A stretch of DNA of 64,000 nt from Cyanidioschyzon merolae (GCA_000091205.1 AP006501.2), one strand, 5' to 3'. Numbered from the stretch's first letter, positions 6,833-26,879 are shown. The notes: generated from the letters alone by a model not told the origin. Program-made: numbers and translations.

Positions 6833-9020
6833 CTCTAACATAGTCTGCTACCTCTATTATGTTCCACCGCAGGTGCGAGTCCTTTACGGCCTCTTCGCGG
6901 TTTACCGCAGATTCATTCGAAGCGCGTTCATCTTGAAGAAATACAGTATTCAAGGGGAAGGTATGCACGTAAAAGCCGAGGATCCTGGAGGACCGTCATC
7001 CCTGGCTGCCCGAAGAAAACGCAAAAAATCCTCTCATCGCCGATCATCGAGCGAAGACAAGCAAGTTACGAGGAAAAAAACAGAATAGGGGACACAGACG
7101 ATAAAAGGTGTTTGCTAGACGTGACAATGACGAGACTGTTGTGGCGCAGGGGGCGCGAGTACTTGGAATTCTTGCAATGTTGAGCTCCACCAGCGTCAAT
7201 GCACGCAAGGAGTTCGTGAATCGAGACGTGAACGCCGCCATCTATACCAAACGATGTGCGGTGCTGAAGAGGATACCCGAGGCGCTGGCGCGAGCCCGTC
7301 TTGTGAGGCAGCCTCTCAGGCTCGAGGTATACATGCAGAATCTGGAACTGATAGCAGGCGGCCGGTCAGACGAGAGAGTGAGGCGTCTGCGAGTGGGTGT
7401 CTATGTACCTATCATGGTCGTGAACCGCTGCTCGTTGTACCGACTATAAACTTAGAGCAGTGGATTCTGGAACAACTTTTCGAGGGCGCGCTTTTGTTTC
7501 GATTGCTTTTCTCGCAGGTGTTCAACCAAGCAATTGTGTACTTTAGGTTCGGGGGAAAGTCGCGAAACGTTTTGAGCTTTTTATGGCTTGCGTGCGCAAA
7601 CCGCCGTCATTCTGAACTGAAGGCAACGCAATCCGATAAAGTGCATGAATCAGCTGTCTCGTAGTGCCTGTTCCTAGAACTGCGCTCCAAAACGAGAACG
7701 TACCAGACGCCACCTACAAGCCTTGCTCGTTTTCAATCCGTTCCACTCCACAGTTCCGTTCAGAAAAAGCAGAGAAAAAACCACACGATATGAAGATTCT
7801 GTACCGTCGATACCGACGGTAATGAAGAGGCACGGGTGGACGACGCAAAAGCACGTTGCTCCGTGAGACCGTCGTACGTTGAACGAGACGCGCACACTCT
7901 CATACGCACACCCGCGATCGATTACATCATGAAAAGCGAGCGGTTACTACGGGACGGACGAGTGCTCGTCGCTCTCAATGAGACTTCATTCAGAGAAGCG
8001 TGCAGACCTGGACACGGGCGCCCTAACAGGGATCATCGATGTTCGCACACCAGGAACACGCGAGTATTCCGAAAAGATCAGCAGTAGCAGCAGCATGGAA
8101 ATCGTGTGGTCGCCTACTTTTCGCCAAACGGGCGGGATTGCCCAACAGCTCATTCGCGGTCGAGGCAGTCCCCAGGATGCAGAGCTGAAGTGGATGCCCT
8201 GCACGCTTGCTCCGGGGTGCGCCTTAGCGACCATGCGGCACATGCGGACGATATTGGGGCAGGGGCACAGCGAACCGCGCTGGGGCCGCCAACGGTTTCG
8301 GTTGTATAGGCCGAACTGGCGTGCAATCGCCTACGTGGTCAGTCAGTTGGACAAAGCATCGACAGACGTGTCGCATCGTTTGGTGGAGGACGAAGGCGCT
8401 CGACGTATTGCTGCGCGCAAAGCACGTACCCGTGTTCGTTGCGCGAGAGCGCACACCGAGTGCAGGAATCGATGCGGTACGTGCTCCCGTTGATGAGTTC
8501 AAAACGACGTATACGCATCACAAGCATGTGTGCACGCCGAAACGGGTAGAGAAGACGAATGTGAAACGGAACCTGATGCACGACGTGGTGTGCGGGAAGC
8601 GGGGCATCGTCAGGTAGCGACGAGGGTGCAGGTGAGCGGCTGGCAACGGCGTGATTCCCCGAGCAGCCACGCGTGCAAGCACATTCTGCGCGGAGACTTG
8701 GGCGTCTCAACGAGCACCCGGAAGCGTCTCGTGCTTCCGGAGCGTCCATCGGTTTTGCATGAAGCGAGCGCTCGAGGTAGTAATCGGTTCGACCTTCGCG
8801 GCGCCATGGTACTGGAACGCAGAAGGCTTGCGATGAAAAGAATCAGTGGCGGCGAGAGAGGGCTCTGGATTCCCGACTGGAGCTATGCACTGGTACGATA
8901 TGGATCAGCAATCGAGTGAGACTCGTGTACTCTCATATATACGCTGTGATTTGGATTCCCTGGCAGTTGGAGAAAGATCGTGCTGATATACTATCCGATT
9001 TTACTGCGGATATGAAGCGA
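6833..9020. repeat. Inverted-repeat arm A (~2.19 kb), near-identical inverted copy at 24630-26838
   Basis: The six-frame ORFs in 6750-8920 reappear on the opposite strand in 24730-26850: the 129-aa ORFs are identical, the 171-aa ORFs differ at 3 residues, and the 136-aa ORFs at about 4. Boundaries were set by manually aligning the flanks against the reverse complement. No convincing protein-coding content. Confidence 0.85.
7205..7420 (+). repeat. ~200-bp dispersed core repeat, copy 1 of 4 (inside arm A)
   Basis: Shares blocks with 12530-12705 (rc), 26260-26450 (rc) and 28021-28200: gagttcgtgaatcgagacgtgaacg, gtgcggtgctgaag, ctcaggctcgaggtatacatg and gatagcaggcggccgg. About 70% identity among the old copies. 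Confidence 0.7.
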
Positions 9021-9666
9021 GATGCAACACAGTGTTTTGATATAAATCCGCGCATTCAAACCTATAGACTTTCAGATGAACTTTGACACTCGCAACACAA
9101 ATCTCGCTCGTTGGAGCTGCTCGACTCGCGGCGTCTAGCCTTCTCGAAACTGGAATGCGACTGCCGGACAGTCACAGTTGCAAAACGTTCGCTGCGAAAT
9201 CGGTCATTGGGACAGTATTTCCAACCATCCACGGCTATTTCATGTGCAAAAGCTCTCCAAGCCGTAGAATTTGCAGTGTTTTCTTTTTTATAGGCATGCA
9301 CATGAGCTTTCTTATTTTGACGCTCCAAAGAACTAGTGTCTGATTCGGCGATCGTTGCGAGCACCGGAACACGCACGGTGCGTCTGTCGAGCTCAGAACG
9401 CAGCAGGGAGCGGAAGCAGCTGCCACAGGCGAAGACGGCTTGTTTCTCGCCGAGCGAGCGACTTAGAGGACGACCATTTGGCTATCTCGCGTGAAAGTCG
9501 TAGTTGTCGCTTGTTGGGAGCAGTATTCAGGCACAACTACTGCTGTTTGCGTACAAGACTCAATTTTCTGTGCGAGCTCCCGTGGAGCAACGGGGAACGC
9601 TACTACGGACCTACTAGTGTTGCTCTCGAAAGCCGACCGGGACGGCTATCCTGCTCGTCCAGGTCT

Positions 9667-10458
9667 ATGAATGACGACTCACGACGCTATCCCAACTTTA
9701 GTGCGTACTTTCGACCAGTGCAAGACGGCGAACCGCTACCGTCTGCACCGGAGAGTTTGGCGCTGTGGGGTCAGCGCACTGTATGGGGCCTTCTCGGTGG
9801 AGCAGCACTGGGCTTTGGCCAGGGACTTCAACGCGCACGTATGCGAAAAGCGTACCCAATGCCTGCGGGTCTCGTGAACTCGCCATCGAGGCGCCTCGCC
9901 TACTTCGTGACGAGTGGCGTGGTGAGCACCAGTGCTCACCTCGGCCTCTTCGTGGCCCTCTATAGCGCTGTCGACCTCGGTGTTCGGGAATGGTTGCGCT
10001 CGGCGCCTGCTGAGCCTTTAGCAGACGGCTGTATACTCTGTAACTGGACCCGATCGGCGGGCGTTGAACAGTCCAGCGGTCTTGCTGCTGGCTCCATAAC
10101 AGGCTTTCTCTTCCGACTTCCTACCGGTTCTGCCTCGCTAGCTCTTTCTGGAGCTGCATACGGCGCTGGCCTTGGTTTCATAGCAGGCTCCATTGAACGA
10201 TGGCTGCGCAAACTCGAGCACGCTGCTCGTTCAAAGTGGACAGCGCAGCAAGCAGCTGACGAGGTCGACCATAAAGAAGTCGAGCAGGCTGGCACAGCTA
10301 CAGCATCCTCGCCGAAGTCAGGCGCTGTTGATGCCTATATTCTAGCGCTCCAGCAACGGGTTCAGCCAAATACGCATCAGGGATTAGAAGAATGGAGAGC
10401 AAATGGCGAGGTCTCTTCTGAGGAGTCGGAGAAGAATACATCACCCGGTAGCCCTTGA
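9667..10458 (+). CDS. Tim17/Tim22/Tim23/OEP16 (PRAT) family-like small membrane protein (tentative)
   Basis: Gly-rich predicted TM segments (GLLGGAALGFGQGL, GLAAGSITGFLF, GAAYGAGLGFIAGS) with GxxxG spacing typical of preprotein-translocase-family proteins. Start placed at the internal ATG at 9667, because the upstream part of the 9355 ORF looks non-coding. Assignment rests on composition and motif, not on alignment. Confidence 0.35.
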   Translation: MNDDSRRYPNFSAYFRPVQDGEPLPSAPESLALWGQRTVWGLLGGAALGFGQGLQRARMRKAYPMPAGLVNSPSRRLAYFVTSGVVSTSAHLGLFVALYSAVDLGVREWLRSAPAEPLADGCILCNWTRSAGVEQSSGLAAGSITGFLFRLPTGSASLALSGAAYGAGLGFIAGSIERWLRKLEHAARSKWTAQQAADEVDHKEVEQAGTATASSPKSGAVDAYILALQQRVQPNTHQGLEEWRANGEVSSEESEKNTSPGSP

Positions 10459-11463
10459 AATCTTCGGAAAACTGCGAAGAGCGTACGGAGACTCGCTGGA
10501 TATTGGAGACGCCAGCGCTGTGGCGCGCCGTCTTCGCGCATAGTGGCGCCGTTTCGCGCTGTTGATGACTTTCACATTCGAGCAATGTAGTGCATTACTG
10601 TCTCACACGAGACTGTGCGAGAAAGTTTTCACACAAGCTGCTGATTCGAGAGCTCCCATCACGGATGCGATAGAAGACCGGCTGCATCCTAATGAATCAG
10701 ATCTATGACGAATCTCTTGTTCCTGCTCGTCATTTGAGGAAAACTTCCTCAAGCAGATGTGGTATATACCGGTTTCCGATGGCGCAAGATGAGAATTCTA
10801 TTTTTTCGGTGAAATATTTTCTCGGAGGCAGATGCGGCCTGCCTTCCCAAAAGCACGCAAAACGTTCAAACTAGGAGGAGGATGTACCAAAGCGACATCG
10901 TGTGCGGAGTTTATTGGAGCGTAGCTGTGTCCTCAGCTGCGTCTGCGAGCAGTCCATCTCTCATTGCTGATGGGAAACAGGGCCCTATCCAAAGGTCAAA
11001 AAAGCGTCCTACGAGGTTTCATAGCGCTCTCCCCAATCAATGCAAACCTCTCCGCTTGAAGACGCGACATGGGAAGCTCGCGTTTTGATTGTTATCTGTT
11101 GAGGAAACGTGGAAATTCTTCAGCATTTATTGCTACTCGGGCATTGCTATCTGCAGGGCTAGTAAGCGGAATGTAGTGCATCCCTATCATTCAAGTCGCT
11201 CAACACGGGCGCACAGGCGAAACCGCGGCACCGTGGTTCGCGATCGCCGAAGGCTGCATTTTAGATTTCTTGTCGGTTTACGATCGATGAAACGAGCTTA
11301 TTTACTTTGTATGCGCCGCTGCTGTCTACAGGGAAGGCAGAAGCCACTGCTCGTCAACTGCATTTTTGATTGGAGGAGCCTTGCAATCGGCGTCGGTTTT
11401 TGTAATGACACGGAGGCGTTGCGATGGAGTCCACGGGCGGGCACCAAGCCAAGCAATGTAGGT

Positions 11464-11952
11464 TCATGTCGGAGACACATGCGGGGTACCAGCGCCCTGG
11501 TCCACGGATTCGGTTGCCGCAGGAAGTTTCGTACGCGACTGTCTTGCGTCGCCCCAAATTTGGTAGCAGTAGAAGCCAACGCCGAGCCAGAGCGTCAAAA
11601 GCGCCAAAAAAGCTGCTGTCTTCGCGCTTTGCTGAGATGAACTGTAGACTAACGCAAGGACCAGTATAGGGCAGACTCCGTTGAAGGCTATGACGCTCCA
11701 GAATAACCCCCAGGGCGACCTTTTGGGTTTCTCCACGGGGTTTCGCTCTGACGCACCCACGCAGAGCGTACAGCCTCCCGCAGAGGTATGCTTCGGCGCC
11801 TTCGACGAAATCGGCTCCACTCCCGCTGTTCCGTACATGTTGGACAGCTTCTCCCAGTCGTGCCAAGTGACTGGAGCTCTTGCCTGCGGTGCTTGCTGTT
11901 TTCCTGGCACCAGCGATGTCTCGGTCGACAGCTGTGGCGTTTCGGGTCGCAA
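11464..11952 (-). CDS. Hypothetical small membrane protein
   Basis: 162-aa ORF with two strongly hydrophobic stretches (GLFWSVIAFNGVCPILVLALVY, AAFLALLTLWLGVGFYCY). No recognisable family and it overlaps other ORFs; may be spurious. Confidence 0.15.
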   Translation of the reverse strand: MRPETPQLSTETSLVPGKQQAPQARAPVTWHDWEKLSNMYGTAGVEPISSKAPKHTSAGGCTLCVGASERNPVEKPKRSPWGLFWSVIAFNGVCPILVLALVYSSSQQSAKTAAFLALLTLWLGVGFYCYQIWGDARQSRTKLPAATESVDQGAGTPHVSPT

Positions 11953-12439
11953 CTACGTTATGAGCTGCAACGGAGGGCACGATCTCTGCTCTTCAGCAAT
12001 TGGCGCCCTAGTTTCCAGTTCCTATTTCTGCCAGAGTAACCTGCTCGTATGGGAAAGCTGGCCTCGTGAACGCGACTCGCAGGCCGGTACGCAAGATTGC
12101 TCGAGGTTGCAGGTTTTGCAGCGTGGCACTCGCGTAGGGTGCCAAATTTTTAGCTGCGTTTCGAAGGTTCCAAAGCCGACGACTAAGCGAAGCTCTCCGA
12201 CGCTCTGGCAGTTTCCAAGTACGTCAAAAAACAGCCAGCGGTCGTTCCCGTCAACAAGCATAGCAACTCGAGCACTGCGCGAGCGTTTTCATGAGCGTTT
12301 ACTAGAGCAGTAGAGCACGCTTCCAAGACTCACAGCCAGTTTTACGTAACATCGTGCTATTCAGTTGCCCGCCGCTGTGCTCGAGCCCGGACTCCACAAA
12401 ATTATCGCTCTTTACAGATTCCTTGGTTGAAGCAACCAG

Positions 12440-13893
12440 TCAATAAATAAAAATATATCGTCATTGGAACAAAAAATGTTTGTCGAACAGTGAGAGTAAA
12501 CATATAAACTCAAGCGCAGACGACTTCCAGCCATTTTTGACCGGGCACCTGCTATCGGTTTCAGCTTCTCCTTATACACTTCAAGCCTGAAAGGCAGCTT
12601 CACGAAGTTCTCTGGCGTCAGCTATGCGATTCTCGTCTTCAGCACCGCACATCGTCTGATGTTGATATCGGTTTCGAAGTCTCGGCTCACGATCTCCTTG
12701 CATACATTGCTGCTAGTTAACGTTATTTATGCAAGGGTTCCTTGAACTCGTGCCCTTTGTGCCCCTACAGTCTCGTCATCCTACTGTCGGGCAGACACCT
12801 TGCATCGCACATCTCTCATCGTCATCTTTTCCGTGGTCACTTGCTCCTCATCGCTCGATGGTCGCCAAGGAGAGAATTTTTCGCTTGTTCGTCGAACCCG
12901 CAGGCAAGGGGCCTCCAGGACCCTCCACTTCCATGTCCATAAGTTTCCTTTATACAGTATGGTCTTGAAAATGAATGCACCTCTTTATGAACTCAGGTGA
13001 GAAAATTCCTCAAGCGTGAAGCTCTTGCGTAGGAGAGACGAAATGTGCCCCAGTGTGTCGTCGTGTGCTGAAAGCTTCAGCGATTCGGCCAGCGGAGGGA
13101 TCATTACGTTTCACGATCCAAAACGGTCATTCGAAGACGTTGAATCACGGCAATTACGGAGGGATGAAAAGCTACTGTACCCAGGCAGGATCCGCAAATG
13201 CTCGAAACCAAGTCGAATTGTTAAATACCATGTTGATCAATGGAAGGACGTCGCCAGACGTCAGGAGTAAAGTCTTTAATGATTCCACAAACTTGGTGGC
13301 GCTGTTGTATGAGCCTTCTTCACTTGCGAAACTGAGGCCATCAAATGAATCCATTCCAGCTTGAACTGATGAAGATATCATCGTTCTCTTCGAGTACCTT
13401 CATGCATGCATCGGGCCCCCAGTCAGCGAATACCCATCCATGCCCCGATCGTTTTTCCGAAGAAGGTTTCATCGATTTGAAAAACATACCAATGTCTCTG
13501 TGCTTCATATCGATCGCAGCGTTCCGAGAATTCTGTCGTTGCGATTTCGGTGGAAGCTGACGTTCATTGAACTTTGACTTTCTTGTAAGCGTATCCTAGT
13601 GTTTTCAAGACTACACGAACAAACTGCTGAGTAACCGAGACGCCCGTGGAGACTTTCATCGTCCTTTTTGCTTTCCGTAAGGCGATTAACGGGACGTTTT
13701 CTACCACCGACAGCAGGCAATCTCCGAGAATATTGGTTTTTTGCCTGTAGTGTACATGCTTCTCTCCTTCCAGTGTTCCTGAACCATCTGAAACTGTGGT
13801 ATGACTGACCTGCAGAAGGAATGCAGTATTCCGTGTATTGCTCAGTAAAGAACATATACTGGGCATTTCGTCTACATTCTGTGGGGTATCTTG
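12440..13893. repeat. Repeat element B (~1.45 kb), near-identical inverted copy at 26880-28270; possible decayed Tc1/mariner-like element
   Basis: ORFs 13016-13902 recur inverted at 26912-27788: the 103-aa ORFs are identical, and the 116-aa and 93-aa ORFs differ at 1 residue. Minus-strand peptides resemble Tc1/mariner transposase pieces. The HTH-like segment KVSTGVSVTQQFVRVVLKTLGYAYKKV matches ..KVSISTVKRVL....L.G...KKP, and the C-terminal RRCAVLK segment matches RRCQAVID. Size fits Tc1/mariner. I could not find clean terminal inverted repeats or TA duplications. Confidence 0.6.
12530..12705 (-). repeat. ~200-bp dispersed core repeat, copy 2 of 4 (terminal part of element B)
   Basis: The reverse complement aligns with 7205-7420 and 28021-28200. 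Blocks gtgcggtgctgaagacgag and gatagcaggtgcccgg are conserved. Confidence 0.7.
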
Positions 13894-13908
13894 CCGGGCC
13901 ACTTCGAT
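13894..13908. repeat. Target-site duplication (left) of the LINE
   Basis: Exact 15-mer ccgggccacttcgat, also present at 18982-18996, immediately abutting the element termini. Confidence 0.8.
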
Positions 13909-14935
13909 TTTTCTTTAATCACTGACGAAATGTTTACCTAAGCCAGCGTTCTCCGATTATGCGCATTTTTCGTTTCTTAATTTTTTTGTGTTTTTTGTCA
14001 GTGTGAGGTGGGATATCCATCAACCCCCTACCTCCATGTTACATTACCTATACTTCGTCTCGGATATTCTGGTCGTTTCATGCGTCCTATCGGGTGCCGA
14101 GCCTGCCGAAAGCGACAGCAATAGCGCCTATAGCGCCGGTGCAGTCGCTGCACGGAGACAGAACGGCGTTGCCGTACCACAAAGAGCGTCTGCTCGAGGT
14201 GTGCTTCACCCGACGTAGAATCGGGTCTCGTCGTCAGTTTGTGCTCGGATAGTCTGCAAATGCAGGCTTGCCTTCGCTGCAATACACGCTGTAGAAACTT
14301 GGCTGTTAGGATATATCCTGAGAGCCGCCTCTCTCCTTCGTGATCATGCATGGAATGCGTTGTTGTCGGTTGGCAATGCGGGTTTGTGCTTGACACCCAT
14401 CACAGTGGGTAGGCACAAAGAGCACTAAACCCGTGTGCTCATCCGATTCGTTGGACCTGCTGCCTAGAAGGTAGAGTTTGAGTTTATTGGCCACTCATGA
14501 GCGCTGAGGCTCCGTTAGCGCACCATCAGTTGCCAGTGCTACACTCAGAGTGAGTGTCCGGCCTTCGACAATCACGGTGATGTCCAGCTGCTGCTGTCCT
14601 CCAAGGAACTCGCTGCGCTCCTGCTTCGAGCGCGGGCACTGTAAGCTTAAATATGTCAGCGTCTCGGGGATTTCGTCTCGATAGCAGGTACAGTGTGACT
14701 CCCAGTGCGGTTCCAGTGTTCCCGTACGGAGTAGAGCCGGTGCTGGTAGCCAGAAGCCACCAACGCGGATTTTGGCGAGCCACTGGGTACCGCGAGCAAG
14801 TCCCGGGAATTCCAGCGCCTCCCACCAGTACTTGCTTGTGTATGCTAGGTTGTAGTTCCGGTATAGAGTCAAGCCGGCGTTACTGGCGCGACTGGTACCG
14901 TGTCTACCTTCCCATATTGGCGTTCGGACCGTTCG

Positions 14936-17202
14936 CTAGAGGCGGCGGGAGCCTTGTACATTTCTGGGGAACGATTGGAGCGCATTTTCGCGTAAGAGGC
15001 GCTTTAGCCAAATCTGCGCTGATTTCATCCAAGTTTTCTTGCGGTGCGTTGGGGTCTGCATGAAAATCCGACTCAAAGGGGTGCGCATAGTGGGCCCTTT
15101 GGCCCGTATACATGCCCAGCAGCCTGCTGCTATCGCTTCTATCGAGGCTATTTGGAGTTCAAGTCCGAGTGCCAGCGGGTTGGTTGCTCTGCGCTGCATT
15201 GAGCATCCAACAACAACAACGAGTCGCATTGCCCTGTTGGCAGCTGTCTGCAGACGCGAGGCATTTGTGTGCTTCATGCCGCACCATTCAGCACCCCAGG
15301 TCGAAGGCTGGATGATACACATCCTTAGTGCCCTCGTACGGATTGCTAAGGGGATAGAGGGGTCGGATGGGAATGGGCGTGCGATCGCTGTACGTCTATG
15401 CATCTTGGCGATCATCTCGTCGACGTGAGCCTTTTCGTCGAGCGTCGGCGTGAGACAGACCCCCAGGTAGCGATATTTTTCCACGATCGGAATTTCCTGA
15501 TTCTGCAACCGCCATGAGCGATTGCGAATGCTCTGTGAGTCTCCATGGATGACCATGGCGCCGCACTTCAATGCTCCTATGTTCATAACCCAGCGATCGG
15601 CCCAGGCGCTGACTTGTTGCATGCTAGCCGCAAGCGTTTCCGGGGCGGGTGCCAACAGCACGACGTCGTCGGCAAGTAGAAGGCCTGCGAGGCGGTTTCT
15701 ATGTGAGGGCTCCTCATCGGGCATCTCCACAGTCTATCCACGGCACCTCAAGTCCGTATTGTCTGCGGTTGTTCAGCAGATCGTTGATGAAGATGTTGAA
15801 AAGGCGCGGGGATGCGCGGTCGCCCTGTCGCAGTCCACGGCGGATTCTTATCGAAGGGGTTCTTGAGCAGTCGCCCAGTCGGGTGCACATCCACGAGTCT
15901 GCATAGAGCGCACGGAAGAACGCTAAGCACTTTCCGGAGACTCCGGCACGTTCCATCTTCAGAAATGGAGCCTCGTGCGGGACCGTTTCAAAGGCCTTTT
16001 GAAAGTCGATGAAGCATACGTAAGTTGGTTGTTGGCAGCTAATGGAGCGACGTTGCACCACTTCAATGAAGGTCAGGTCATGGCTCATGTACTCCTCGCG
16101 GCTCCGGAATCCAGCCTGTTCTGGGGCGAGGAATTTGCGTTCCTCGAGGCCCCTCTGAGTCCGGTTCGTGAGGTTGGCGCAAAGTAGCTTCATGATTTAC
16201 GGGATGAGGCGCATAGTCCGGTAGATATTCATGTCTGTGGGGTTCGGAGTCCTTTTTGAGGATCGGTACGACCTCGGCAGTCCTCCATACATCTGGGATG
16301 TACGCTTCTTCGAACATGCGTTGGATGAGCTCCAGAAGGCGCTTGCCTAAGATTGTGTCAGGTTCATCTGGTATCGATAGTGTCCCTGTTGTCTCGTCTT
16401 TTGGGGTCGCCAGTTTCATCCACTCCGTAGGGATACCGTCAAAGCCAGGTGTTTTGCGGTTGCATGACCTTAAGAGGGTCCGGACAGATTCAGGCCAGAA
16501 GATTGGGTCGTTCCATACCGGTACCGGGTCGAGGCGCGGTAGTTCTGCAGCATATTGGTGCCAATAGATTGGGTCTTGGCAGTGCCCAGTTGCGTCTTCA
16601 TGCAGCTCTGTCCCGTGGTCTATCCAGGCCTCATTCACTGAGGCACTCTCCGTCCTCAGCGCTTCCTTATAAACAATTGGTGTGAGCCCCAGGCACTTTC
16701 TTGGTGGGTCCAGTCTCGATCGAATGGAGCGCCATGTCTCATCTTCGTTGGTGCTCTCCAGCATAGATTTCGCCAGGGAGGCGATTCTGCGATTTCGATC
16801 CTCCTGTTTGTCTTCTCTGGAAAGTTTCTTCTTTCTTTTGATAGCTTCCTCATGTTGTGCCTGTAGCGCCGTTAGGACTGCCTTCGCTTCCTTGTCTCCG
16901 GCGTTGGCGCGTATGGCGGTGCGGTTGACGATCTTGTTGAGTCGGTGGCATCCATCAATCTGTGCTTTTTTACGTCGTTTCAGGTACTGAGGTTTGCAAC
17001 TGTTGCGTTCTGGTGCAAGCAGTCCCAGTTCTCTGGCAATCTTCTGATTCCCATCTACATACTCGCGTGCCAATTGGTCAAAAGATTTGTATGCACGGCT
17101 TTTCGGATCTTCAACGCTGTGAGCAGGTGCCTGGGTTTGGCGACGGCTTTCTTGAGTTCCAGCTGGGGTGCCCTCTCGGGGGATACCTTGTGATGAGCTC
17201 AT
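14936..17202 (-). pseudogene. LINE ORF2 reverse-transcriptase segments (three overlapping frames)
   Basis: RT motifs are spread over three ORFs (16078-17202, 15714-16193, 14936-15730) whose ends overlap in different frames. This is consistent with frameshift mutations or assembly indels. Confidence 0.8.
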
Positions 17203-17365
17203 TTGGGAGTTCTTTTTTCTATTCTTCTGTTTTTTTCTTGCTGGTCTTTTTCTTCTTCGGGCTCTTTCCTGAGCTGCTTTCTCTGGTTATTCTTCTGGTA
17301 CGTGGATCATGATGCCAGCGTGTCTATCCTTCCGTATCGCCTTGAGTCTCTTTTCCTATTGTAGA

Positions 17366-18148
17366 TCACTCTATTGTTGTCTCTTCTTCGTTAATGTACT
17401 GATAATTCGTTATCTTTTCTCGGAAGGCTGCAAGTGACTTGTTGGTTAGTATCCGGGCTTGGTATGTTGAGGGTGCAATTGCTGGTAACCCTCGCTGTGC
17501 GCTCTGAGTCGTGTCGGCTACTGGTTCAGCATTTTGGTTCCTCGGGCGCGGGTACCATCTGCAGTGGATGGGCCAGTGATCTGAGGCATCCCAAATTCGG
17601 TCAACGGCGGTATGTTGGAGTGCCGGGTCGCATCGGTCGCTTAAGATGTGGTCTATCGATGAGCGAAGCAAACGTTGGTCGGTAATGCGGTGCCACGTCA
17701 GGGGTGAACCTCTACACGGATTCACCGACAGCAATCCGCATCTCATTCGTTGTAGGTGTTGCCTAAGGTGGCCCGCCGACATGTTAAAATCTCCCATAAT
17801 TATCATCGGTTCCTCATTCCGTGTGCGGCGTTTCAATCGCTGGATGTTGGAGGCCAACTCTTTGAGTGCCTGTCGGCGCATCTCACAGGCGTGTGGTATA
17901 TAAATGGAGCCCACAAGCCAAGGTGCAGGCTGACCTGGAATTGTAACACTCACAAAGACCATCCATGGAGACGGGTTGCCGACCGCATAGCAAGTGAGGC
18001 GTCGATCGACAGTGAGCGCAACACCACGTGTGCGTAACGAAGTTGGCTTGTCCGTAGGGTCTACGTACGTTGGTTCAACCGTGTTGTAGCCTGGGATATG
18101 CAGACGATAATACGTCTTTGTGTTCTCTGAGTGTAGTGTCTCCTGCAA
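17366..18148 (-). pseudogene. LINE ORF2 endonuclease-domain segment (frame-separated from the RT segments)
   Basis: APE-like endonuclease motifs (see the LINE feature). Stop codons and frame changes separate it from the RT segment. Confidence 0.8.
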
Positions 18149-18981
18149 TGCCAGGATATGGACGTCTCAGCGTTCCAGGAAGTACCTTACGTCGTCTAGA
18201 ATCGAGGCTACCCCCAAAAATTTTCCATGATGCGAAACCTATCGAGTCGTAGCGCGTAAGGGAATAGGAATAGCGCTGCGGTACTCGAGAGATACGTTGT
18301 CGATTGAGATGCACCCTCCACGGCGTGTGAGAACGCACATGCCACCATTGCCTCCTGCATTCCAGTCGTTCAGTGAGTGTCTGCCGCAGCGCTAGCGTAG
18401 AATCAGATGTACATTAGTCAAAGTCGATTCGAATGCGACCTTTATCTTGCCGGACGCGTGAAGCTCCCCTCAATCACTGGGGATACGCTATGAACCACCC
18501 TGTCAGCGGCTTCGTATCCGCTCCCCAAATACATAGGCGGGCAAGTCGCTTATTCCAGCTTCGATCGCGAACATACTGCCAGCCGTCTTCCAAAGTATCC
18601 GCCGAAATTGTTCCCAAAGTTGAGGTAGGTACCCAATGTAGGAGGTAAACCGGAGCCCGAGTTTAAGGATCGATCCAAGATTTGCGCCCGAACCTGCAGC
18701 GTTGATTCGGGAGGGGCGGATAACTGCTCAGAATTTTCGTCAGCTTTTTCTGCTGCTGCTGCCTCCGCCCCTCCGTTCGTTGCGGTCAAGGTCCCTGGCG
18801 TGGGCTTCCTTCGCCGTCGCCCAAGCACCCCGTGTTTACCCACTTTCAGAGCTTCTCCGGAAAAACTAGACCTCTTAAGCAGGCATGGTGTGTGGGTCTT
18901 TAAGATAGTTGTTCTTTAATAAATAGTTTGCGACTAGTTTGTTTTGTTGTTTTTTATGTACGTTACGATTTTTTTTTCATT

Positions 18982-18996
18982 CCGGGCCACTTCGAT
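18982..18996. repeat. Target-site duplication (right) of the LINE
   Basis: Exact 15-mer ccgggccacttcgat, matching 13894-13908. Confidence 0.8.
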
Positions 18997-19189: not shown

Positions 19190-20041
19190 ATGCTTCTGAC
19201 AAACAGCAGACAGCTGGGCTTCGTGGGGCCCGTCCACGGAAGGGGCTCACCAACGCGCTCGCTTGTCGGGCGTTTCCGGAGAGTAGGACGAACGCGCACT
19301 CCCCTTGAACGACTTGTTGCGACTCGAGAATGGGAGCGAGTGACAAATAGTCGCCAGCACCTTGTAGCTGTAGTTGCATTGGTGGCGCTTTTGTCAGGTT
19401 TTCCCGAGTGGACTGGGGGTGCAGCGTTCACGTCCACTTCGACACTTGCTAGTCAGGAGCGCGTAGAGGGCGGAGTCGTGTCGCCCGAGCGCTGGGAACT
19501 CCTTCCTGCACTAGAAGGCAAAGACTATGGGAAACCCCGTATGCGATACTCGGACTTTGTAACGTTACCTGATGGAGTACAGTATCGAGACGTGCGTATT
19601 GGCGACACGGAGATCACACCCCGCCCAGGTGACCGGGTGGTCCTCAACTGGAGTGGGTACACAATTGGTTACTATGGGCGAATTTTCGAGGCTAAAAATC
19701 GAGTACAGGGTGGCGCTTTTGGTGACGACCGCGAATATTCTCGCTACGTCCTTGGCCGAGGGGAACTCGTACCTGCTCTCGAAGAGACTCTGCTGACAAT
19801 GCATCCGGGAGGTGTTAGACAGGTGATCGTTCCGCCCGAGCGCGGGTATCCTCTAGACGGCTCGGACTGGAACCACGATCGTGTCGGACCAAAACCACGG
19901 ACCTTCAGCGGCATGCGTGCTCTCAATTTTGTGCTTGAGAACAAGGGCCTCGTAGACAAGACGCTACTGTTTAACATAGAGTTGATCCGAATTGATCGAC
20001 CTGGCGAAAACGGCTTCGAAACTGTTGGACGACGGCAATGA
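19190..20041 (+). CDS. FKBP-type peptidyl-prolyl cis-trans isomerase, probably organelle (thylakoid-lumen-type) targeted
   Basis: C-terminal ~150 aa form an FKBP domain (GDRVVLNWSGYTIGYYGRIFEAK, YVLGRGELVPALEETLLTMHPGGVRQVIVPPERGYP). The N-terminal ~110 aa are Arg/Ser-rich followed by a hydrophobic stretch (LVAVVALVALLSG), resembling a bipartite targeting sequence. The exact start is uncertain. Confidence 0.8.
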   Translation: MLLTNSRQLGFVGPVHGRGSPTRSLVGRFRRVGRTRTPLERLVATREWERVTNSRQHLVAVVALVALLSGFPEWTGGAAFTSTSTLASQERVEGGVVSPERWELLPALEGKDYGKPRMRYSDFVTLPDGVQYRDVRIGDTEITPRPGDRVVLNWSGYTIGYYGRIFEAKNRVQGGAFGDDREYSRYVLGRGELVPALEETLLTMHPGGVRQVIVPPERGYPLDGSDWNHDRVGPKPRTFSGMRALNFVLENKGLVDKTLLFNIELIRIDRPGENGFETVGRRQ

Positions 20042-22456: not shown

Positions 22457-24629
22457 TTATATTCGGTTGTTGTACGAGATCAAAGCTGGGCTCTGTGCGT
22501 TCAGTTAGAGCTGACTGAATAAGTGCCTCTGCTGAGCGAAATATGCCACTGCCGTTGCAGACTCCGCGTGCAGTTCGTCCATTCGCAAATGCGTGTGAGT
22601 GTGCGTACAATGCGTACGTGCGTGTGTGCATCGCCCACAGCGACGAGCGCCAGCCGTACGAGCGCTTTGGGCCTGCGCGCCATTGCTGCGCCATTCGGTG
22701 GCTGGCTCATGATCGCCGCCGTGCGTGCAGACCTTGAGCGCACCCGCGTCGGAATAAATTGGAGAGAGGCCACGCTCCCAACTCTGGCGTAAAGAATAGA
22801 GAGTGAATCTCTTTATCAAAAAGAAGCGCATTTTCAAGCTTTTTTATGAATTCTTGATTTTTTCTCTTTTCTGTCTTGGAAAACACCGGGCTCTTTTTCC
22901 CATCTAGCTCTGTTGTCAGCAGTCGAGGGGTGTTGATGACAGCGTTCGAGTCCCAATTTTAAGGCTTTCTGATGTTGTCGACGCCGTACATTCGCAGACG
23001 GCTGTTGCGATCTAAGAGAGATCGCCATTTCGATTTCTTCGTATACGGCCTCAATGCGCCATCTGCAGCTGTGATTCTTGGTTATTTTGTGGTGTTCACG
23101 TACGTCAACTACACCTTATCTTCCTCGGGCCGCTCTGCGGCGAGATAACGTTTGCGATGTCATTCAGTGTGTGCCCCCGAGGGTAACGGCGGTTCGCCTC
23201 GATGACCTCCTCCGTATCCGCACCCGACGCCGACCTCCAGCATCACAGTCATCTTCCGGGAAATCCCACGATGGCTAAGCTGTCCGCTGGACACGCAAGC
23301 ACGCGCACCTCCATTCTTTGGAGGATTTGTGGAAAACGATTTTCTCTATGATGAAAAGAGAATCGAAAGGGAAACCCGGGTTGAGAAGCAGTCAGGATTT
23401 TTTGACAAAAGTATGCTGCATTCGTGCAAAGCGGTGATGCAATCACCGCTCGAAGCGGTCGATGCGATGAATCAAGTCCGAGCCCAAGACTCTTTCCCCG
23501 ACACACTTTAGAGATGGGAGCAAATGCGAGCATATCCCGTAAGAGGTATGACGCTCCAATGGAATGCAGTTAGGTCGATATCCATAAAATAGTAGGATTT
23601 AGGGTTCGAAAAGAAGCTTTTATTCTTCTCCTGAGATGTTCAGTGAGGTTTCGGCACGAGCATGTGATGATGTCGTCAAGCTTTCCCCTCATCTATCCAG
23701 GGTGCGACTTGTTCCGCGTACGAGCCTTCTTAAAAAAGACAGATCGAAAACATGAAGAATGCGTGATTTGCGCACGCAGAACGCAAGGGATGGTAATGAG
23801 CGGAGACTTGTTCGAATGAATTGGATAAGAATTTCAGTCATTTTACGAACCCTGCTTCGAAGGCGTCGAGAATCATCTTGATTTTCGGTAAGGTTATGAA
23901 TTCCAGCCGAAAAAGGCAAAGAAGCGACGAAGGAATGAGAAGCGAGAATCCTTAAGTTACGCATGAATGAATAGCCCTTCTTGCTGCACTTCGAATATCG
24001 ACACCGTATATCTGAGGAAAAGTTCCAAAGAGAAGTCAAGAGGGAGCAGTTCTGTTCTCCGTTTTGGTCTGATACAATTGTAAGAGCGGTGCTTGGCGAT
24101 TTCTTCGACACGACGTCGCCGAGTCCCGAGCAAGTGCCCGCTCCGCCAGAGGCACTGGTGGTTGTGTGCGCCAAACTCGACTCTTCTCGACGGACAATTC
24201 ACTGATTCTTTGGGCGTTTGCTTCCTTCAATACGCTTTTGAGGAGGCAGTATCAAACGCCCACTCCACCAGATGCATTCTGAGTTGATTGAAGAAACCTC
24301 GACTCGTCTCCAACAGTACTTTTCGGACTGCCGGGCTATCGACACATTTTCCAGAGGCATCCACTCATACTGGCATGACGCCCCAGCCGCATGCTGGCGA
24401 AGGAAATGAATGGATTTTTTCTCTGCATCTTAATCCACTAGCGCCTGTTCCCTGGGGGACCAAGACTGTAGCAGAAGGCGAAAAATTGGCCAGTGTAAAG
24501 ACTCTATTAGGTTTCCGGACAATGATCATGCAGTTAAAAAATTGCCTCGCCTTCCAGAGCACGTCTGTTGTGTACAAATTTTGTAAGCAGTTTTGGAAAC
24601 GGCTAGGGCTCACGGAAACGTTTCAGCTC

Positions 24630-26838
24630 AACCGCTCGTATATCCGCAGCAAAATCGGATAGTATATCAGCACGATCTTTCTCCAACTGCCAGGGAATCC
24701 AAATCACAGCGTATATATGAGGGTGCAAAAGTCTCACTCGATTGCTGATCCATATCGTACCAGTGCATAGCTCCAGTCGGGAATCCAGAGCCCTCTCTCG
24801 CCGCCACTGATTCTTTTCATCGCAAGCCTTCTGCGTTCCAGTACCATGGCGCCGCGAAGGTCGAACCGATTACTACCTCGAGCGCTCGCTTCATGCAAAA
24901 CCGATGGACGCTCCGGAAGCACGAGACGTTTCCGGGTGCTCGTTGAGACGCCCAAGTCTCCGCGCAGAATGTGCTTGCACGCGTGGCTGCTCGGGGAATC
25001 ACGCCGTTGCCAGCCGCTCACCTGCACCCTCGTCGCTACCTGACGATGCCCCGCTTCCCGCACACCACGTCGTGCATCAGGTTCCGTTTCACATTCATCT
25101 TCTCTACCCGTTTCAGCGTGCACACATTCTTGTGATGCGTATACGTCGTTTTGAACTCATCAACGGGAGCACGTACTGCATCGATTCCTGCACTCGGTGT
25201 GCGCTCTCGCGCAACGAACACGGGTACGTGCTTTGCGCGCAGCAATACGTCGAGCGCCTTCGTCCTCCACCAAACGATGCGACACGTCTGTCGATGCTTT
25301 GTCCAACTGACTGACCACGTAGGCGATTGCACGCCAGTTCGACCTATACAACCGAAACCGTTGGCGGCCCCAGCGCGGTTCGCTGTGCCCCTGCCCCAAG
25401 ATCGTCCGCATGTGCCGCATGGTCGCTAAGGCGCACCCCGGAGCAAGCGTGCAGGGCATCCACTTCAGCTCTGCATCCTGGGGACTGCCTCGACCGCGAA
25501 TGAGCTGTTGGGCAATCCCGCCCGTTTGGCGAAAAGTAGGCGACCACACGATTTCCATGCTGCTGCTACTGCTGATCCTTTCGGAATACTCGCGTGTTCC
25601 TGGTGTGCGAACATCGATGATCCCTGTTAGGGCGCCCGTGTCCAGGTCTGCACGCTTCTCTGAATGAAGTCTCATTGAGAGCGACGAGCACTCGTCCGTC
25701 CCGTAGTAACCGCTCGCTTTTCATGATGTAATCGATCGCGGGTGTGCGTATGAGAGTGTGCGCGTCTCGTTCAACGTACGACGGTCTCACGGAGCAACGT
25801 GCTTTTGCGTCGTCCACCCGTGCCTCTTCATTACCGTCGGTATCGACGGTACAGAATCTTCATATCGTGTGGTTTTTTCTCTGCTTTTTCTGAACGGAAC
25901 TGTGGAGTGGAACGGATTGAAAACGAGCAAGGCTTGTAGGTGGCGTCTGGTACGTTCTCGTTTTGGAGCGCAGTTCTAGGAACAGGCACTACGAGACAGC
26001 TGATTCATGCACTTTATCGGATTGCGTTGCCTTCAGTTAAGAATGACGGCGGTTTGCGCAAGCAAGCCATAAAAAGCTCAAAACGTTTCGCGACTTTCCC
26101 CCGAATCTATAGTACACAATTGCTTGGTTGAACACCTGCGAGAAAAGCAATCGAAACAAAAGCGCGCCCTCGAACAGTTGTTCCAGAATCCACTGCTCTA
26201 AGTTTATAGTCGGTACAACGAGCAGCGGTTCACGACCATGATAGGTACATAGACACCCACTCGCAGACGCCTCACTCTCTCGTCTGACCGGCCGCCTGCT
26301 ATCAGTTCCAGATTCTGCATGTATACCTCGAGCCTGAGAGGCTGCCTCACAAGACGGGCTCGCGCCAGCGCCTCGGGTATCCTCTTCAGCACCGCACATC
26401 GTTTGGTATAGATGGCGGCGTTCACGTCTCGATTCACGAACTCCTTGCGTGCATTGACGCTGGTGGAGCTCAACATTGCAAGAATTCCAAGTACTCGCGC
26501 CCCCTGCGCCACAACAGTCTCGTCATTGTCACGTCTAGCAAACACCTTTTATCGTCTGTGTCCCCTATTCTTCTTTTTTTCCTCGTAACTTGCTTGTCTT
26601 CGCTCGATGATCGGCGATGAGAGGATTTTTTGCGTTTTCTTCGGGCAGCCAGGGATGACGGTCCTCCAGGATCCTCGGCTTTTACGTGCATACCTTCCCC
26701 TTGAATACTGTATTTCTTCAAGATGAACGCGCTTCGAATGAATCTGCGGTAAACCGCGAAGAGGCCGTAAAGGACTCGCACCTGCGGTGGAACATAATAG
26801 AGGTAGCAGACTGTTAGAGACACTCGGGACTGTGCCAG
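24630..26838. repeat. Inverted-repeat arm A' (inverted copy of 6833-9020)
   Basis: See arm A. The A' end at 26838 lies only ~40 bp from the start of B' at 26880. Confidence 0.85.
26260..26450 (-). repeat. ~200-bp dispersed core repeat, copy 3 of 4 (inside arm A')
   Basis: Reverse complement of the 7205-7420 core, as part of the A/A' duplication. Confidence 0.7.
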
Positions 26839-26879
26839 ATCATATGCTTTCAATCCAATTTCGTTTCAGCCTCTGCTGC

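What the first reader, a model, noticed from the sequence alone, without database searches (positions are those of the whole stretch)
6833..26838. 2.2-kb inverted repeat pair (A/A') at >99% identity, 15.6 kb apart
Segment 6833-9020 recurs as a reverse complement at 24630-26838. Of the translated ORFs, one 129-aa frame is identical, and others differ at 3 of 171 and about 4 of 136 residues. Neither arm has convincing coding potential, so the conservation is not selection on a protein. It indicates a very recent duplication or ongoing gene conversion between the arms. The internal core repeat (7205-7420) shows that the arms are built partly from older transposon-derived sequence.
Basis: seen in the sequence. 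Interest (0 to 1): 0.6.

Follow-up and report, generated by a model that had tools for sequence, protein, structure and literature searches.

The report
Near-identical inverted copies of dead Fanzor transposon debris
The 2.2-kb inverted repeat is real, but it is an ordinary low-copy duplication of non-coding wreckage from a known red-alga transposon family (Fanzor1/CMe-1), apparently kept similar by recombination between at least three nearby copies.

Summary
The window is Cyanidioschyzon merolae 10D chromosome 19. The inverted repeat is confirmed: 6824-9013 against 24640-26828 reversed, with 20 mismatches and 2 indels in 2191 columns (98.95%) and 15,626 nt between the arms. Independent metagenome and SRA assemblies reproduce every junction, so it is not a misassembly.

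Each arm is non-coding debris of the known Fanzor1 (CMe-1A, "WSV486-like") interspersed repeat. It holds an internally deleted mini-element (start codon plus RuvC-III C-terminus) followed by a more diverged Fanzor1 pseudogene 3' half.

In wild populations the arm's 3' end occurs in only three genomic contexts. The third copy (A'') lies next to CMS092C, upstream on the same chromosome. A second inverted pair (B 12969-13875, B' 26928-27835, 98.5%) lies nearby, in a different order on the two sides.

The arms have sharp ends, no target-site duplications, no terminal inverted repeats and no canonical element termini. This favours DNA-level duplication of a composite over transposition. Haplotypes next to the junctions are shared among the three copies across samples, which points to non-allelic gene conversion or recombination.

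Some contigs show an inverted-isomer junction, but short-read chimeras cannot be excluded. This is an ordinary finding of modest interest.

The parts
6824..9013 (+). Arm A, the left copy of the 2.19-kb repeat. It starts 323 nt upstream of the eIF3e start codon.
   Evidence: Junctions reproduced by independent contigs L002/L039, L031, L034, L035, L015 and L030.
24640..26828 (-). Arm A', the right copy, reverse complement of A (98.95% identity).
   Evidence: Junctions reproduced by L009-L012, L014, L036, L038, L048 and L049.
6894..7445 (+). 'c' mini-element inside arm A, an internally deleted CMe-1A-type Fanzor1 element. It has the 5' UTR and ATG (6963) with about 55 N-terminal codons (consensus 843-969). 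These are fused to the C-terminal RuvC-III region, aa 647-728 (7153-7395, motif FVNRDVNAAI), and the 3' tail. The mirror copy in A' is at about 26258-26760.
   Evidence: BLASTN and TBLASTN against the published CMe-1A consensus and CMe-1 protein: 51% aa identity, E 2e-18; 67-71% nt identity.
7446..9013 (+). Right part of arm A, a diverged and degenerate Fanzor1 pseudogene 3' half. The match to aa 523-692 lies at 8254-8757. The RuvC-II motif 'PVDEFKTTYTHH' is in another frame at 8477-8572. The 171-aa and 129-aa ORFs (7978-8493, 8530-8919) share one frame and are separated by stops. The pseudo-ORF ends 94 nt before the arm end. The mirror copy in A' is at 24640-26206.
   Evidence: E about 1e-5 to 1e-7. 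Colinear TBLASTX similarity to 53820-56042, which itself matches CMe-1 aa 499-660 at E 5e-19.
12969..13875 (+). B, a 907-nt non-coding unit (GC 46%) and the left copy of the second inverted pair. Its low-coordinate end abuts the 5' end of c'.
   Evidence: No similarity to CMe-1A or to anything else in the window. Spanned with both flanks by contig L035.
26928..27835 (-). B', the right copy of B (98.46% identity). It is 99 nt from the outer end of A' and 25 nt from c''.
   Evidence: Contigs L023 and L024 run from inside B' into ORC1.
26829..26927 (.). A 99-nt spacer between A' and B'. It is unique, with no counterpart beside A or B on the left.
12507..12980 (-). c', an old copy (about 69-72%) of the same internally deleted mini-Fanzor element. 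It has the same deletion junction as c.
27860..28193 (+). c'', an independent old Fanzor1 C-terminal fragment (aa 614-723). It contains residues that c' lacks, so it is not a duplicate of c'.
   Evidence: (E 4e-26).
13905..14225 (+). D, a fragment of the CMe-1A 5' non-coding region (consensus 84-282, 78%). It is also 89% identical to 51757-52030.
14900..18150 (-). Degenerate non-LTR (LINE-like) retrotransposon inside the segment between the arms. It has an AP-endonuclease domain at 17366-18148 and a reverse-transcriptase fragment at 14936-15730.
   Evidence: Pfam. AT skew of -0.28 at 16-18 kb.
9014..24639 (.). The 15,626-nt interior between the arms. It carries cellular genes: a Tim17-like ORF (9355-10458 +), FKBP (19190-20041 +) and the geranylgeranyl-reductase-like gene BAM82743 (20909-22456 -). 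It also carries c', B, D and the LINE.
4831..6501 (-). eIF3 subunit E (BAM82739), the outer neighbour of arm A.
28457..30820 (+). ORC1-like gene (BAM82744), the outer neighbour of the A'-B'-c'' cluster.

Best explanation
The arms are paralogous copies of a non-coding composite. Each is two old, dead fragments of Fanzor1 (CMe-1-type) transposons lying head to tail: an internally deleted mini-element followed by the 3' half of a more diverged Fanzor1 pseudogene.

The composite was copied as a unit at the DNA level within a transposon-rich neighbourhood of C. merolae chromosome 19. This gave at least three copies:
- A'' next to CMS092C, outside the window and probably in direct orientation;
- A next to eIF3e;
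- A' in inverted orientation upstream of ORC1.

The copies differ by about 1%. They are kept similar by non-allelic homologous recombination, meaning gene conversion and possibly crossovers. C. merolae carries out recombination between repeats readily.

The repeat has no coding or RNA function of its own. Its main consequence is to provide 2.2 kb of homology that could invert the 15.6-kb interior or duplicate the segment between A'' and A.

Shown: identity and boundaries; Fanzor1 ancestry and pseudogene state; three contexts only; junction support; haplotype sharing between copies.
Inferred: the copying mechanism (segmental duplication rather than transposition); the orientation and distance of A''; that haplotype sharing reflects conversion rather than assembly mixing.
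For: Organism and finished chromosome.

Repeat geometry.

Fanzor1 ancestry: the published CMe-1A consensus and CMe-1 protein map onto the arm. A second, weaker line is TBLASTX colinearity with another Fanzor remnant at 53.8-56.0 kb.

Known family: 253 interspersed copies averaging 3.2 kb, with a truncated ORF resembling WSSV WSV486 (PMC1955436). About 150 CMe-1A copies roughly 80% identical to consensus, with no TIRs and TSDs undetermined; WSSV also carries a Fanzor1 (PMC3627910).

No function signal: no Pfam family above noise, no Rfam family, no tRNA, no tandem repeat. The 3' end folds no better than shuffles (z = -0.38). A stitched pseudo-ORF has no database homologue.

Low copy number: a 26-mer from the arm's 3' end hits 8 JGI metagenome contigs, which fall into exactly three flank contexts. 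Exact-ORF look-ups find the same three 3' contexts and only two 5' contexts.

Third copy.

Not transposon-like ends:
- Flanks share no homology and there is no TSD or TIR.
- A'' loses homology 21-26 nt before the end shared by A and A'.
- The 5' end corresponds to about position 780 of the 3169-bp consensus, not to its terminus.

Exchange between copies: haplotypes of 8 variable sites within 130 nt of the junction recur in different contexts. TATTCCAA occurs in A' of 10D and L036 and in A'' of L008. TGCGTTGT occurs in A' of L038 and in A'' of L037. Site 9003, 10 nt from the junction, carries the A' allele in an A-context contig (L031).

Intrachromosomal recombination between repeats has been shown experimentally in 10D (PMC13353863).
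Against: Both ends of the arm fall near the ends of its constituent elements. The 5' edge lies just upstream of the mini-element's homology to the consensus. The 3' edge lies 94 nt after the pseudo-ORF stop; the published consensus has 59 nt there. A chimeric transposon using one element's 5' end and the next element's 3' end would give the same picture.

Three copies within roughly 50 kb also fits local hopping.

B/B' is an equally young, sharply bounded unit. In both loci it sits directly 5' of a Fanzor fragment in the same relative orientation. A simple segmental-duplication model does not explain this.

A and B are in a different order on the two sides (A...B on the left, B-99 nt-A on the right), so one duplication event cannot account for both pairs.

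The 20 substitutions between A and A' in the reference are not significantly clustered (p about 0.1-0.3). The reference pair alone therefore shows no conversion tracts.

All population evidence comes from short-read contigs, which can mix repeat copies. Mosaicism in the arm interior among closely related samples looks like such mixing.

I could not read 10D sequence outside the window. The presence, orientation and 5' end of A'' in 10D are inferred.
Confidence: 0.7

Rival explanations
1. Arm A, and separately unit B, is a recently active non-autonomous transposon. In this reading A is a chimeric Fanzor1-derived element that uses the 5' end of the mini-element and the 3' end of the downstream fragment. 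It would be mobilised in trans by an intact CMe-1 element or an unknown transposase, with local hopping producing three nearby copies.
For: The ends are sharp and coincide roughly with element ends. There are three copies with unrelated flanks. Bao & Jurka report that some CMe-1A copies still encode intact Fanzor1, that the family lacks TIRs, and that its TSDs are unknown, so the absence of TIR and TSD is not disqualifying. B is a discrete 907-nt unit found twice, each time immediately 5' of a Fanzor fragment. This recalls TE-N2_CMe, an independent element identical to the CMe-1A 5' region.
Against: Only three contexts appear in all sampled populations, all on one stretch of chromosome 19. The 3' ends differ by 21-26 nt between A'' and A/A'. 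The 5' end is not the family terminus. The constituent parts are only 67-71% identical to the consensus, or 27% at the protein level, so they are old. No intact close relative of the arm's pseudo-ORF was found. No insertion polymorphism (empty site) was seen in any contig.
Confidence: 0.2
2. The copies are old duplicates whose present 99% identity is due entirely to continuing gene conversion. The duplication itself would not be recent.
For: Haplotypes are shared among paralogous contexts across samples. All sampled populations already carry all three 3' junctions, so the duplication predates their divergence.
Against: Flanks just outside the arms show no decayed homology at all. An old, larger duplication with a converted core would be expected to leave some. 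The reference pair shows no significant clustering of differences.
Confidence: 0.2
3. The inverted repeat is an assembly artefact, meaning a collapsed or misjoined repeat in the reference.
For: None beyond the general risk with repeats. Some metagenome contigs do join the wrong flanks through the arm (L001, L008, L040, L047).
Against: The reference is the gap-free, finished chromosome 19. Each of the four arm junctions and the B/B' junctions is reproduced by independent JGI, ENA and Logan assemblies at 99.5-99.9% identity. L002/L039 span the whole left arm with both reference flanks.
Confidence: 0.01
4. The inverted repeat is a selected functional device. In this reading it would be a recombination switch that flips the 15.6-kb gene-bearing interior, or a cis-regulatory or RNA element conserved by selection.
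For: The geometry (2.2-kb arms, 15.6-kb interior) resembles known flip-flop systems. Contig L040 joins eIF3e-arm to the far interior flank, which is the junction expected of the inverted isomer. The legend of Fig. S3 of PMC13353863 shows structural rearrangements on chromosomes 3 and 19 between 10D and a Yellowstone strain, and reports one inversion whose chromosome is not stated.
Against: The interior holds housekeeping-type genes and transposon debris, with nothing regulatory. The mating-type region is on chromosome 11 (CMK076C-CMK078C), and homothallic switching was not observed. There is no Rfam hit, no structure signal and no coding constraint. In L040's population the arms differ at only 3-4 sites, so a short-read chimera is at least as likely. 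From the same eIF3e entrance, contigs exit into all three possible flanks, as random chimeras would.
Confidence: 0.03

Closest known systems
CMe-1A Fanzor1 elements of C. merolae (Bao & Jurka 2013). These appear to be the same as the 'novel interspersed repetitive element' with a WSV486-like truncated ORF (Nozaki et al. 2007).
   Same: The arm's sequence derives from this family. The start codon and N-terminus, the RuvC-III C-terminus and a RuvC-II region are all recognisable. It lacks TIRs and TSDs, has a degenerate ORF, and is dispersed together with other fragments of the family in the same window.
   Different: The arm is not one element. It is a composite of a deletion derivative plus a much more diverged 3' half. 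Its ends are not the consensus termini. It is 99% identical between copies, whereas family members are about 80% identical to consensus. It exists in only three nearby copies.
Low-copy repeats and segmental duplications that undergo non-allelic homologous recombination (for example human LCRs, or yeast Ty/delta-mediated rearrangements).
   Same: It is kilobase-scale, at least 98% identical, present in few copies, built from older mobile-element debris, and shows concerted evolution. Inverted pairs predispose to inversion and direct pairs to duplication or deletion.
   Different: Recombinant isomers are not proven here. The genome is a 16.5-Mb haploid alga with very few repeats, so such structures are rare in it.
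Flip-flop inversion systems bounded by roughly 2-kb inverted repeats (for example mating-type switching in Ogataea polymorpha and Komagataella phaffii, or plastid inverted-repeat isomers).
   Same: The geometry matches: roughly 2-kb inverted arms flanking a segment of about 15-19 kb. One contig has the inverted-isomer junction.
   Different: There is no regulatory cargo and no link to the mating-type region, which is on chromosome 11. The arms are transposon debris. The existence of both isomers is untested by long reads.
Internally deleted non-autonomous derivatives of autonomous elements (MITE-like derivatives, HAL1 from L1).
   Same: The 'c' unit keeps the 5' UTR and start and the last 330 nt or so of the Fanzor element, and has lost about 590 codons. 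Two copies (c, c') share the same deletion junction, so the derivative itself amplified.
   Different: There are no terminal inverted repeats. The mobilising enzyme of CMe-1 elements is unknown. The copies are old (about 70% identical).

Membership tests
Fanzor1 / CMe-1A element family | Significant protein homology to the CMe-1 Fanzor1 ORF | tested here: met
   TBLASTN of the published 734-aa CMe-1 protein: aa 647-728 at 7153-7395 (51%, E 2e-18); aa 523-692 at 8254-8757 (27%, E 9e-6); aa 597-628 at 8477-8572 (53%, E 4e-5).
Fanzor1 / CMe-1A element family | Nucleotide homology to the 3169-bp CMe-1A consensus | tested here: met
   Consensus 843-969 maps to 6894-7026 (71%) and 2842-3084 maps to 7151-7390 (67%). 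This is weaker than the roughly 80% reported for typical members. The right part of the arm has no nucleotide-level match.
Fanzor1 / CMe-1A element family | Intact Fanzor ORF with RuvC D-E-D motifs and a zinc finger | tested here: not met
   About 590 codons are deleted in c. The right part is frameshifted and stop-interrupted. Only motif relics remain: NRDVNAA (RuvC-III) and VDEF (RuvC-II). No Pfam family scored above noise.
Fanzor1 / CMe-1A element family | Canonical element termini (consensus positions 1 and 3169) | tested here: not met
   The arm's 5' end corresponds to about consensus position 780. Its 3' end belongs to the diverged fragment and does not resemble the consensus 3' end. A'' ends 21-26 nt earlier.
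Fanzor1 / CMe-1A element family | No terminal inverted repeats | tested here: met
   No TIR was seen at the arm ends.
Fanzor / TnpB guide-RNA (omega-RNA) module at the element 3' end | Structured, conserved RNA overlapping the ORF's 3' end | tested here: not met
   Region 8800-9013 folds no better than shuffled sequence (z = -0.38). No Rfam hit. Function of any such RNA is not testable with these tools.
Low-copy repeat / segmental duplication subject to NAHR | At least 1 kb, at least 90% identity, few copies | tested here: met
   2.19 kb at 98.95%. There are exactly three 3'-flank contexts in JGI metagenomes and in gene-index look-ups.
Low-copy repeat / segmental duplication subject to NAHR | Sequence exchange between paralogous copies (concerted evolution) | tested here: inconclusive
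   Junction-proximal haplotypes are shared across contexts in different samples. The data are short-read contigs, and the reference pair shows no significant clustering of differences.
Low-copy repeat / segmental duplication subject to NAHR | Recombinant structural isomers (inversion, duplication) | tested here: inconclusive
   L040 has the inverted-isomer junction. L001 and L008 have an eIF3e-arm-CMS092C junction. Short-read chimeras are equally likely.
Composite transposon (inverted-repeat-flanked mobile segment) | Target-site duplication at the outer ends of the two arms | tested here: not met
   The outer flanks...ACCCAAA|arm and arm|ACTGTGCC..., share nothing.
Flip-flop mating-type or phase switch | Regulatory cargo whose expression depends on orientation, and linkage to the mating-type region | tested here: not met
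   The interior genes are a Tim17-like ORF, FKBP, a GG-reductase-like gene and a LINE. The candidate mating-type region is at CMK076C-CMK078C on another chromosome, and no homothallic switching was observed (PMC13353863).

The most novel reading that the evidence does not exclude
The three near-identical copies form an active recombination hotspot on chromosome 19. Natural C. merolae populations would then carry structural isomers: the 15.6-kb interior inverted between A and A' (junction seen in contig L040), and a duplication or circular form between A'' and A (junction seen in L001 and L008). The hotspot may be connected to the rearrangements on chromosome 19 reported between strain 10D and the Yellowstone strain MS1 Ha3. 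In that case Fanzor-transposon debris would be what drives chromosome rearrangement in one of the most repeat-poor free-living eukaryotic genomes.
Probability: 0.2. Interest if true: 0.45.

Novelty: new member of a known kind. Interest (0 to 1): 0.27.

Why it matters
The finding itself matters little. It shows that a striking 99% inverted repeat in a very compact genome is a young low-copy duplicate of already catalogued Fanzor1 transposon debris, and neither a new element nor an artefact.

Three modest points have value:
- It pins the old 'WSV486-like' interspersed repeat of the genome papers to Fanzor1 at a concrete locus.
- It documents an internally deleted mini-Fanzor derivative that itself amplified.
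- It gives a defined three-copy system on chromosome 19 in which non-allelic recombination (conversion, inversion, duplication) can be measured in an organism with efficient homologous recombination, for which T2T assemblies of two strains now exist.

Anyone designing gene-targeting constructs or interpreting structural variation near eIF3e, ORC1 or CMS092C should know these repeats are there.

Tried and rejected
Organism guess. I first took the window for a filamentous fungus. Exact protein look-up showed C. merolae 10D.

Position of the RuvC-III motif. I suspected the core's 'FVNRDVNAAI' was a RuvC-III motif. I then doubted this, because a conserved ATG lies only 200 nt upstream. The published CMe-1 protein resolved it: both readings are right, because the core is an internal-deletion derivative.

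Searches that found nothing relevant:
- Rfam, tRNA scan, tandem repeats.
- Pfam on 10 arm and B ORFs gave only noise-level matches, E 0.07 and 0.9.
- RNA fold of the arm's 3' end, z = -0.38.
- IMG/VR scan for the arm's 5' end, 0 hits.
- Database search with the stitched pseudo-ORF, 0 hits.

Tests on the repeat sequence itself:
- Codon periodicity between diverged core copies: none.
- Homology of the 99-nt spacer to D, to the consensus or to A's flank: none.
- Extended, decayed homology beyond the arm ends: none for A or for B's right end. B's left flank matches only through the old c'/c'' family members.
- TSD or TIR at the arm ends, or at the outer ends of the pair: none.
- Clustering of A versus A' differences as a sign of conversion tracts: not significant.
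- Reading B as coding in six frames: nothing protein-like.

Attempts to reach sequence outside the window:
Look-ups of the 113-aa ORF gave only the eIF3e and spacer/B' entrances.
- More diverged strains that might show an empty site: all contigs retrieved are 99.5% or more identical to 10D and carry the repeats.

Models considered:
- A single inverted segmental duplication was rejected, because A and B are in a different order on the two sides.
- A circular or tandem intermediate (the B-end to A-start junction) was considered, but nothing supports it.

Full report
IDENTITY OF THE WINDOW

Ten long ORFs of the window match annotated proteins of Cyanidioschyzon merolae strain 10D exactly. The proteins carry CMS locus tags and lie on a contig of 1,282,939 bp. 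That is the published length of finished chromosome 19 (PMC1955436).

The finding lies between eIF3 subunit E (4831-6501, minus strand, BAM82739) and an ORC1-like gene (28457-30820, BAM82744).

THE OBSERVATION

The repeat finder and self-BLASTN place arm A at 6824-9013 and arm A' at 24640-26828 on the opposite strand. A global alignment gives 20 substitutions (12 transitions, 8 transversions) and two small indels in 2191 columns, which is 98.95% identity. There are 15,626 nt between the arms.

Homology stops abruptly at both ends. Flanks beyond the arms align no better than shuffled sequence.

Two relevant things were not in the finding.
- A second inverted pair exists. B (12969-13875) and B' (26928-27835) are 98.46% identical.
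- The two pairs are arranged differently on the two sides. On the right, A' and B' are 99 nt apart. On the left, A and B are 3.95 kb apart and in the opposite order.

NOT AN ARTEFACT

Metagenome contigs (JGI, ENA) and SRA-derived contigs (Logan) that are 99.5-99.9% identical to the window reproduce each junction.
- eIF3e into A: many contigs.
- A into the Tim17-like side: L015, L031, L034 and L035. L002/L039 span the whole arm with both flanks.
- Spacer into A': L009, L048 and L049.
- A' into the interior: L009-L012, L014, L036 and L038.
- B with both flanks: L035.
- B' into ORC1: L023 and L024.

WHAT THE ARMS ARE

[quoted passage not shown] It averages 3.2 kb, makes up about 5% of the genome, is transcribed, and has a truncated ORF weakly similar to WSSV protein WSV486 (PMC1955436).

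Bao & Jurka (PMC3627910) described the C. merolae Fanzor1 family CMe-1A.
- The consensus is 3169 bp and the ORF is 734 aa.
- There are about 150 copies, roughly 80% identical to consensus.
- The family has no TIRs, and its TSDs are undetermined.
- They also listed a Fanzor1 in WSSV.

I took the consensus and the protein from their supplementary files and mapped them on the window.

It holds:
- the CMe-1A 5' UTR and start codon (ATG at 6963; MHVKAEDPGGP against the consensus MEKEVEDPGGP) with about 55 N-terminal codons;
- fused directly to these, the C-terminal 82 residues, aa 647-728 (51% identity, E 2e-18), including the RuvC-III motif (FVNRDVNAAI against FVNRDFNAAINI).

About 590 codons are missing. 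A second copy, c' (12507-12980, minus strand, about 70% identical), has the same deletion junction. This mini-element therefore once amplified as a non-autonomous derivative.

The rest of the arm (7446-9013) is a much more diverged Fanzor1 3' half.
- It matches aa 523-692 at 27% identity (E about 1e-5 to 1e-7).
- The RuvC-II motif PVDEFKTTYTHH sits in a different frame.
- The 171-aa and 129-aa ORFs are one ancestral frame broken by stops.
- This part is colinear at the TBLASTX level with 53820-56042, which itself matches CMe-1 aa 499-660 at E 5e-19.
- The pseudo-ORF ends 94 nt before the arm's inner end. The consensus has 59 nt of 3' tail.

The arm is therefore two dead Fanzor1 remnants in tandem. 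No signal of present function was found:
- No Pfam family scored above noise.
- Rfam gave no hit.
- The 3' end showed no significant RNA structure.
- There is no tandem repeat.
- Diverged core copies showed no codon periodicity.
- The stitched pseudo-ORF had no database homologue.

The surrounding region is a transposon graveyard. It contains:
- c'' (27860-28193), an independent C-terminal fragment;
- D (13905-14225), from the CMe-1A 5' region;
- a LINE remnant (about 14.9-18.15 kb, minus strand).

B has no similarity to CMe-1A or to any protein. In both loci its reverse complement sits immediately 5' of a Fanzor fragment (c' or c''), in the position and at about the length of the CMe-1A 5' region. 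It may be an alternative 5' module or a separate non-autonomous element. This remains unexplained.

COPY NUMBER AND THE THIRD COPY

Contigs L001, L008, L013, L020, L021, L037, L050 and L051 leave the arm after position 8987-8992. They enter sequence that is absent from the window and encodes CMS092C and CMS093C (BAM82731 and BAM82732). By accession order these genes lie seven to eight genes before eIF3e on chromosome 19.

From the gene order in L020, this copy (A'') is probably a direct repeat of A, a few tens of kb upstream. This is an inference, because I could not read 10D outside the window.

A scan of JGI metagenomes with a 26-mer from the arm's 3' end returned eight contigs, which fall into exactly three flank contexts. 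Exact-ORF look-ups gave the same three contexts. Only two 5' contexts were seen: eIF3e and the spacer/B' side. A'' may therefore lack the c part.

The unit is thus a three-copy local repeat and not a young multi-copy family.

HOW THE COPIES AROSE AND WHY THEY STAY ALIKE

Several features argue against a simple transposition.
- There are no TSDs or TIRs.
- The 3' ends differ by 21-26 nt between A'' and A/A'.
- The 5' end lies at about consensus position 780, not at the element terminus.
- The constituents are ancient, only 67-71% identical to consensus.

I therefore favour DNA-level duplication of the composite. A chimeric non-autonomous element is not excluded (rival, 0.2), because the arm ends fall near constituent-element ends and B behaves like a discrete unit.

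Divergence between the arms is about 1%. This is only a few-fold above the 0.1-0.5% divergence of unique flanks between 10D and the wild populations. Published inter-strain divergence is 0.71% (PMC13353863).

Within 130 nt of the 3' junction, eight sites vary among contigs, and the same haplotypes appear in different paralogous contexts.
- TATTCCAA occurs in A' of 10D and L036, and in A'' of L008.
- TGCGTTGT occurs in A' of L038 and in A'' of L037.
- TACGTTAA occurs in A, A' and A''.
- Site 9003, 10 nt from the junction, carries the A' allele in an A-context contig (L031).

This is the signature of non-allelic gene conversion or recombination. Three caveats apply.
- Logan contigs (which I understand to be built with short k-mers) and the arm interiors in related JGI samples look mixed by assembly.
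- The reference pair alone shows no significant clustering of differences.
- Intrachromosomal recombination between repeats is experimentally established in 10D (PMC13353863), which makes the mechanism plausible.

POSSIBLE STRUCTURAL ISOMERS

Starting from the eIF3e side, contigs cross the arm and exit into all three possible flanks.
- The reference flank: L002/L039.
- The CMS092C flank: L001 and L008.
- The far end of the interior, which is the inverted-isomer junction: L040.

In L040's sample series the arms differ at only 3-4 sites, and L047 is a similar cross-join through B. Short-read chimeras therefore explain these joins at least as well as real isomers.

The legend of Fig. S3 of PMC13353863 reports one inversion and one reciprocal translocation between 10D and the Yellowstone strain MS1 Ha3. 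[quoted passage not shown] The positions are not given in the text. This is a lead and has not been tested here.

The candidate mating-type region is on another chromosome (CMK076C-CMK078C), and no homothallic switching was seen. A mating-type flip-flop reading is therefore not supported.

VERDICT

The object is a young, low-copy, non-coding duplicate of known Fanzor1 transposon debris. The evidence for exchange between copies is suggestive, and its potential to rearrange the chromosome is unproven.

It is a new instance of known kinds: a catalogued repeat family, and a low-copy repeat subject to non-allelic recombination. Interest is low to modest.

Noticed in passing
window 31937-32394: A roughly 460-nt imperfect palindrome lies in the intergenic region between ORC1 and the RNA polymerase I subunit gene. 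Arms 32023-32133 and 32197-32307 are 78% complementary, and self-BLAST gives 69% over 469 columns. As single-stranded DNA it folds into one long hairpin at -112.6 kcal/mol, z = -12.8 against shuffles. It has no similarity to CMe-1A. It might be a foldback or MITE-like element, in a genome for which a MITE survey reported none (PMC3964958 abstract).
   Followed up: partly
window 51757-56042: Another Fanzor1 locus. 51880-52024 and 52101-53512 are a partial CMe-1A copy (77% to consensus; consensus 84-228 joined to 837-2250; aa 19-442 at 52-63% identity). It is followed by a much more diverged 3' half at 53820-56042 (CMe-1 aa 499-660 at 33%), which is colinear with the right part of arm A at the TBLASTX level.
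   Followed up: partly
window 12969-13875 and 26928-27835 (unit B/B'): A 907-nt non-coding unit is present twice at 98.5% identity. In both loci its reverse complement sits directly 5' of a different old Fanzor1 fragment: c' at about consensus 871 and c'' at consensus 2739. It thus occupies the place and the length of the CMe-1A 5' region. Identity jumps from about 71% to 98.5% at its edge. I could not explain this.
   Followed up: partly
loci L001, L008 (= L032), L040, L047: These contigs join unique flanks that are not adjacent in the reference, passing through the repeats. L001 and L008 read eIF3e-arm-CMS092C. L040 reads eIF3e-arm-interior far end. L047 reads left-B flank-B-spacer-A'. They are either real recombinants or short-read chimeras.
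   Followed up: partly
window 8530-8919: The 129-aa frame is identical in both arms although they differ at 3 nucleotides there, all at third codon positions. The frame starts with GTG and has no ATG until near its end. It is the ancestral Fanzor frame of a pseudogene, so this is probably chance.
   Followed up: partly
window 2746-2861 (minus strand): A fragment of the CMe-1A 5' region (consensus 141-256, 78%) lies upstream of PCNA. It also matches 14084-14202. Several metagenome contigs end about 500 nt downstream, near 3360-3400, for reasons I did not establish.
   Followed up: no
window 23737-23904 and 44924-45093: A weak direct repeat (68% over 171 columns, E 9e-8) of unknown nature.
   Followed up: no
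window 14900-18150 (minus strand): A degenerate LINE-like retrotransposon (AP endonuclease and reverse-transcriptase fragments in broken ORFs) with strong AT skew (-0.28). It is presumably one of the 26 class I elements reported for the genome.
   Followed up: no
tool behaviour: The protein homology search returned no hit at E <= 0.001 for a query that contains the 129-aa arm ORF, although that exact ORF is present in the gene-position index. The absence of hits is therefore weak evidence.
   Followed up: no
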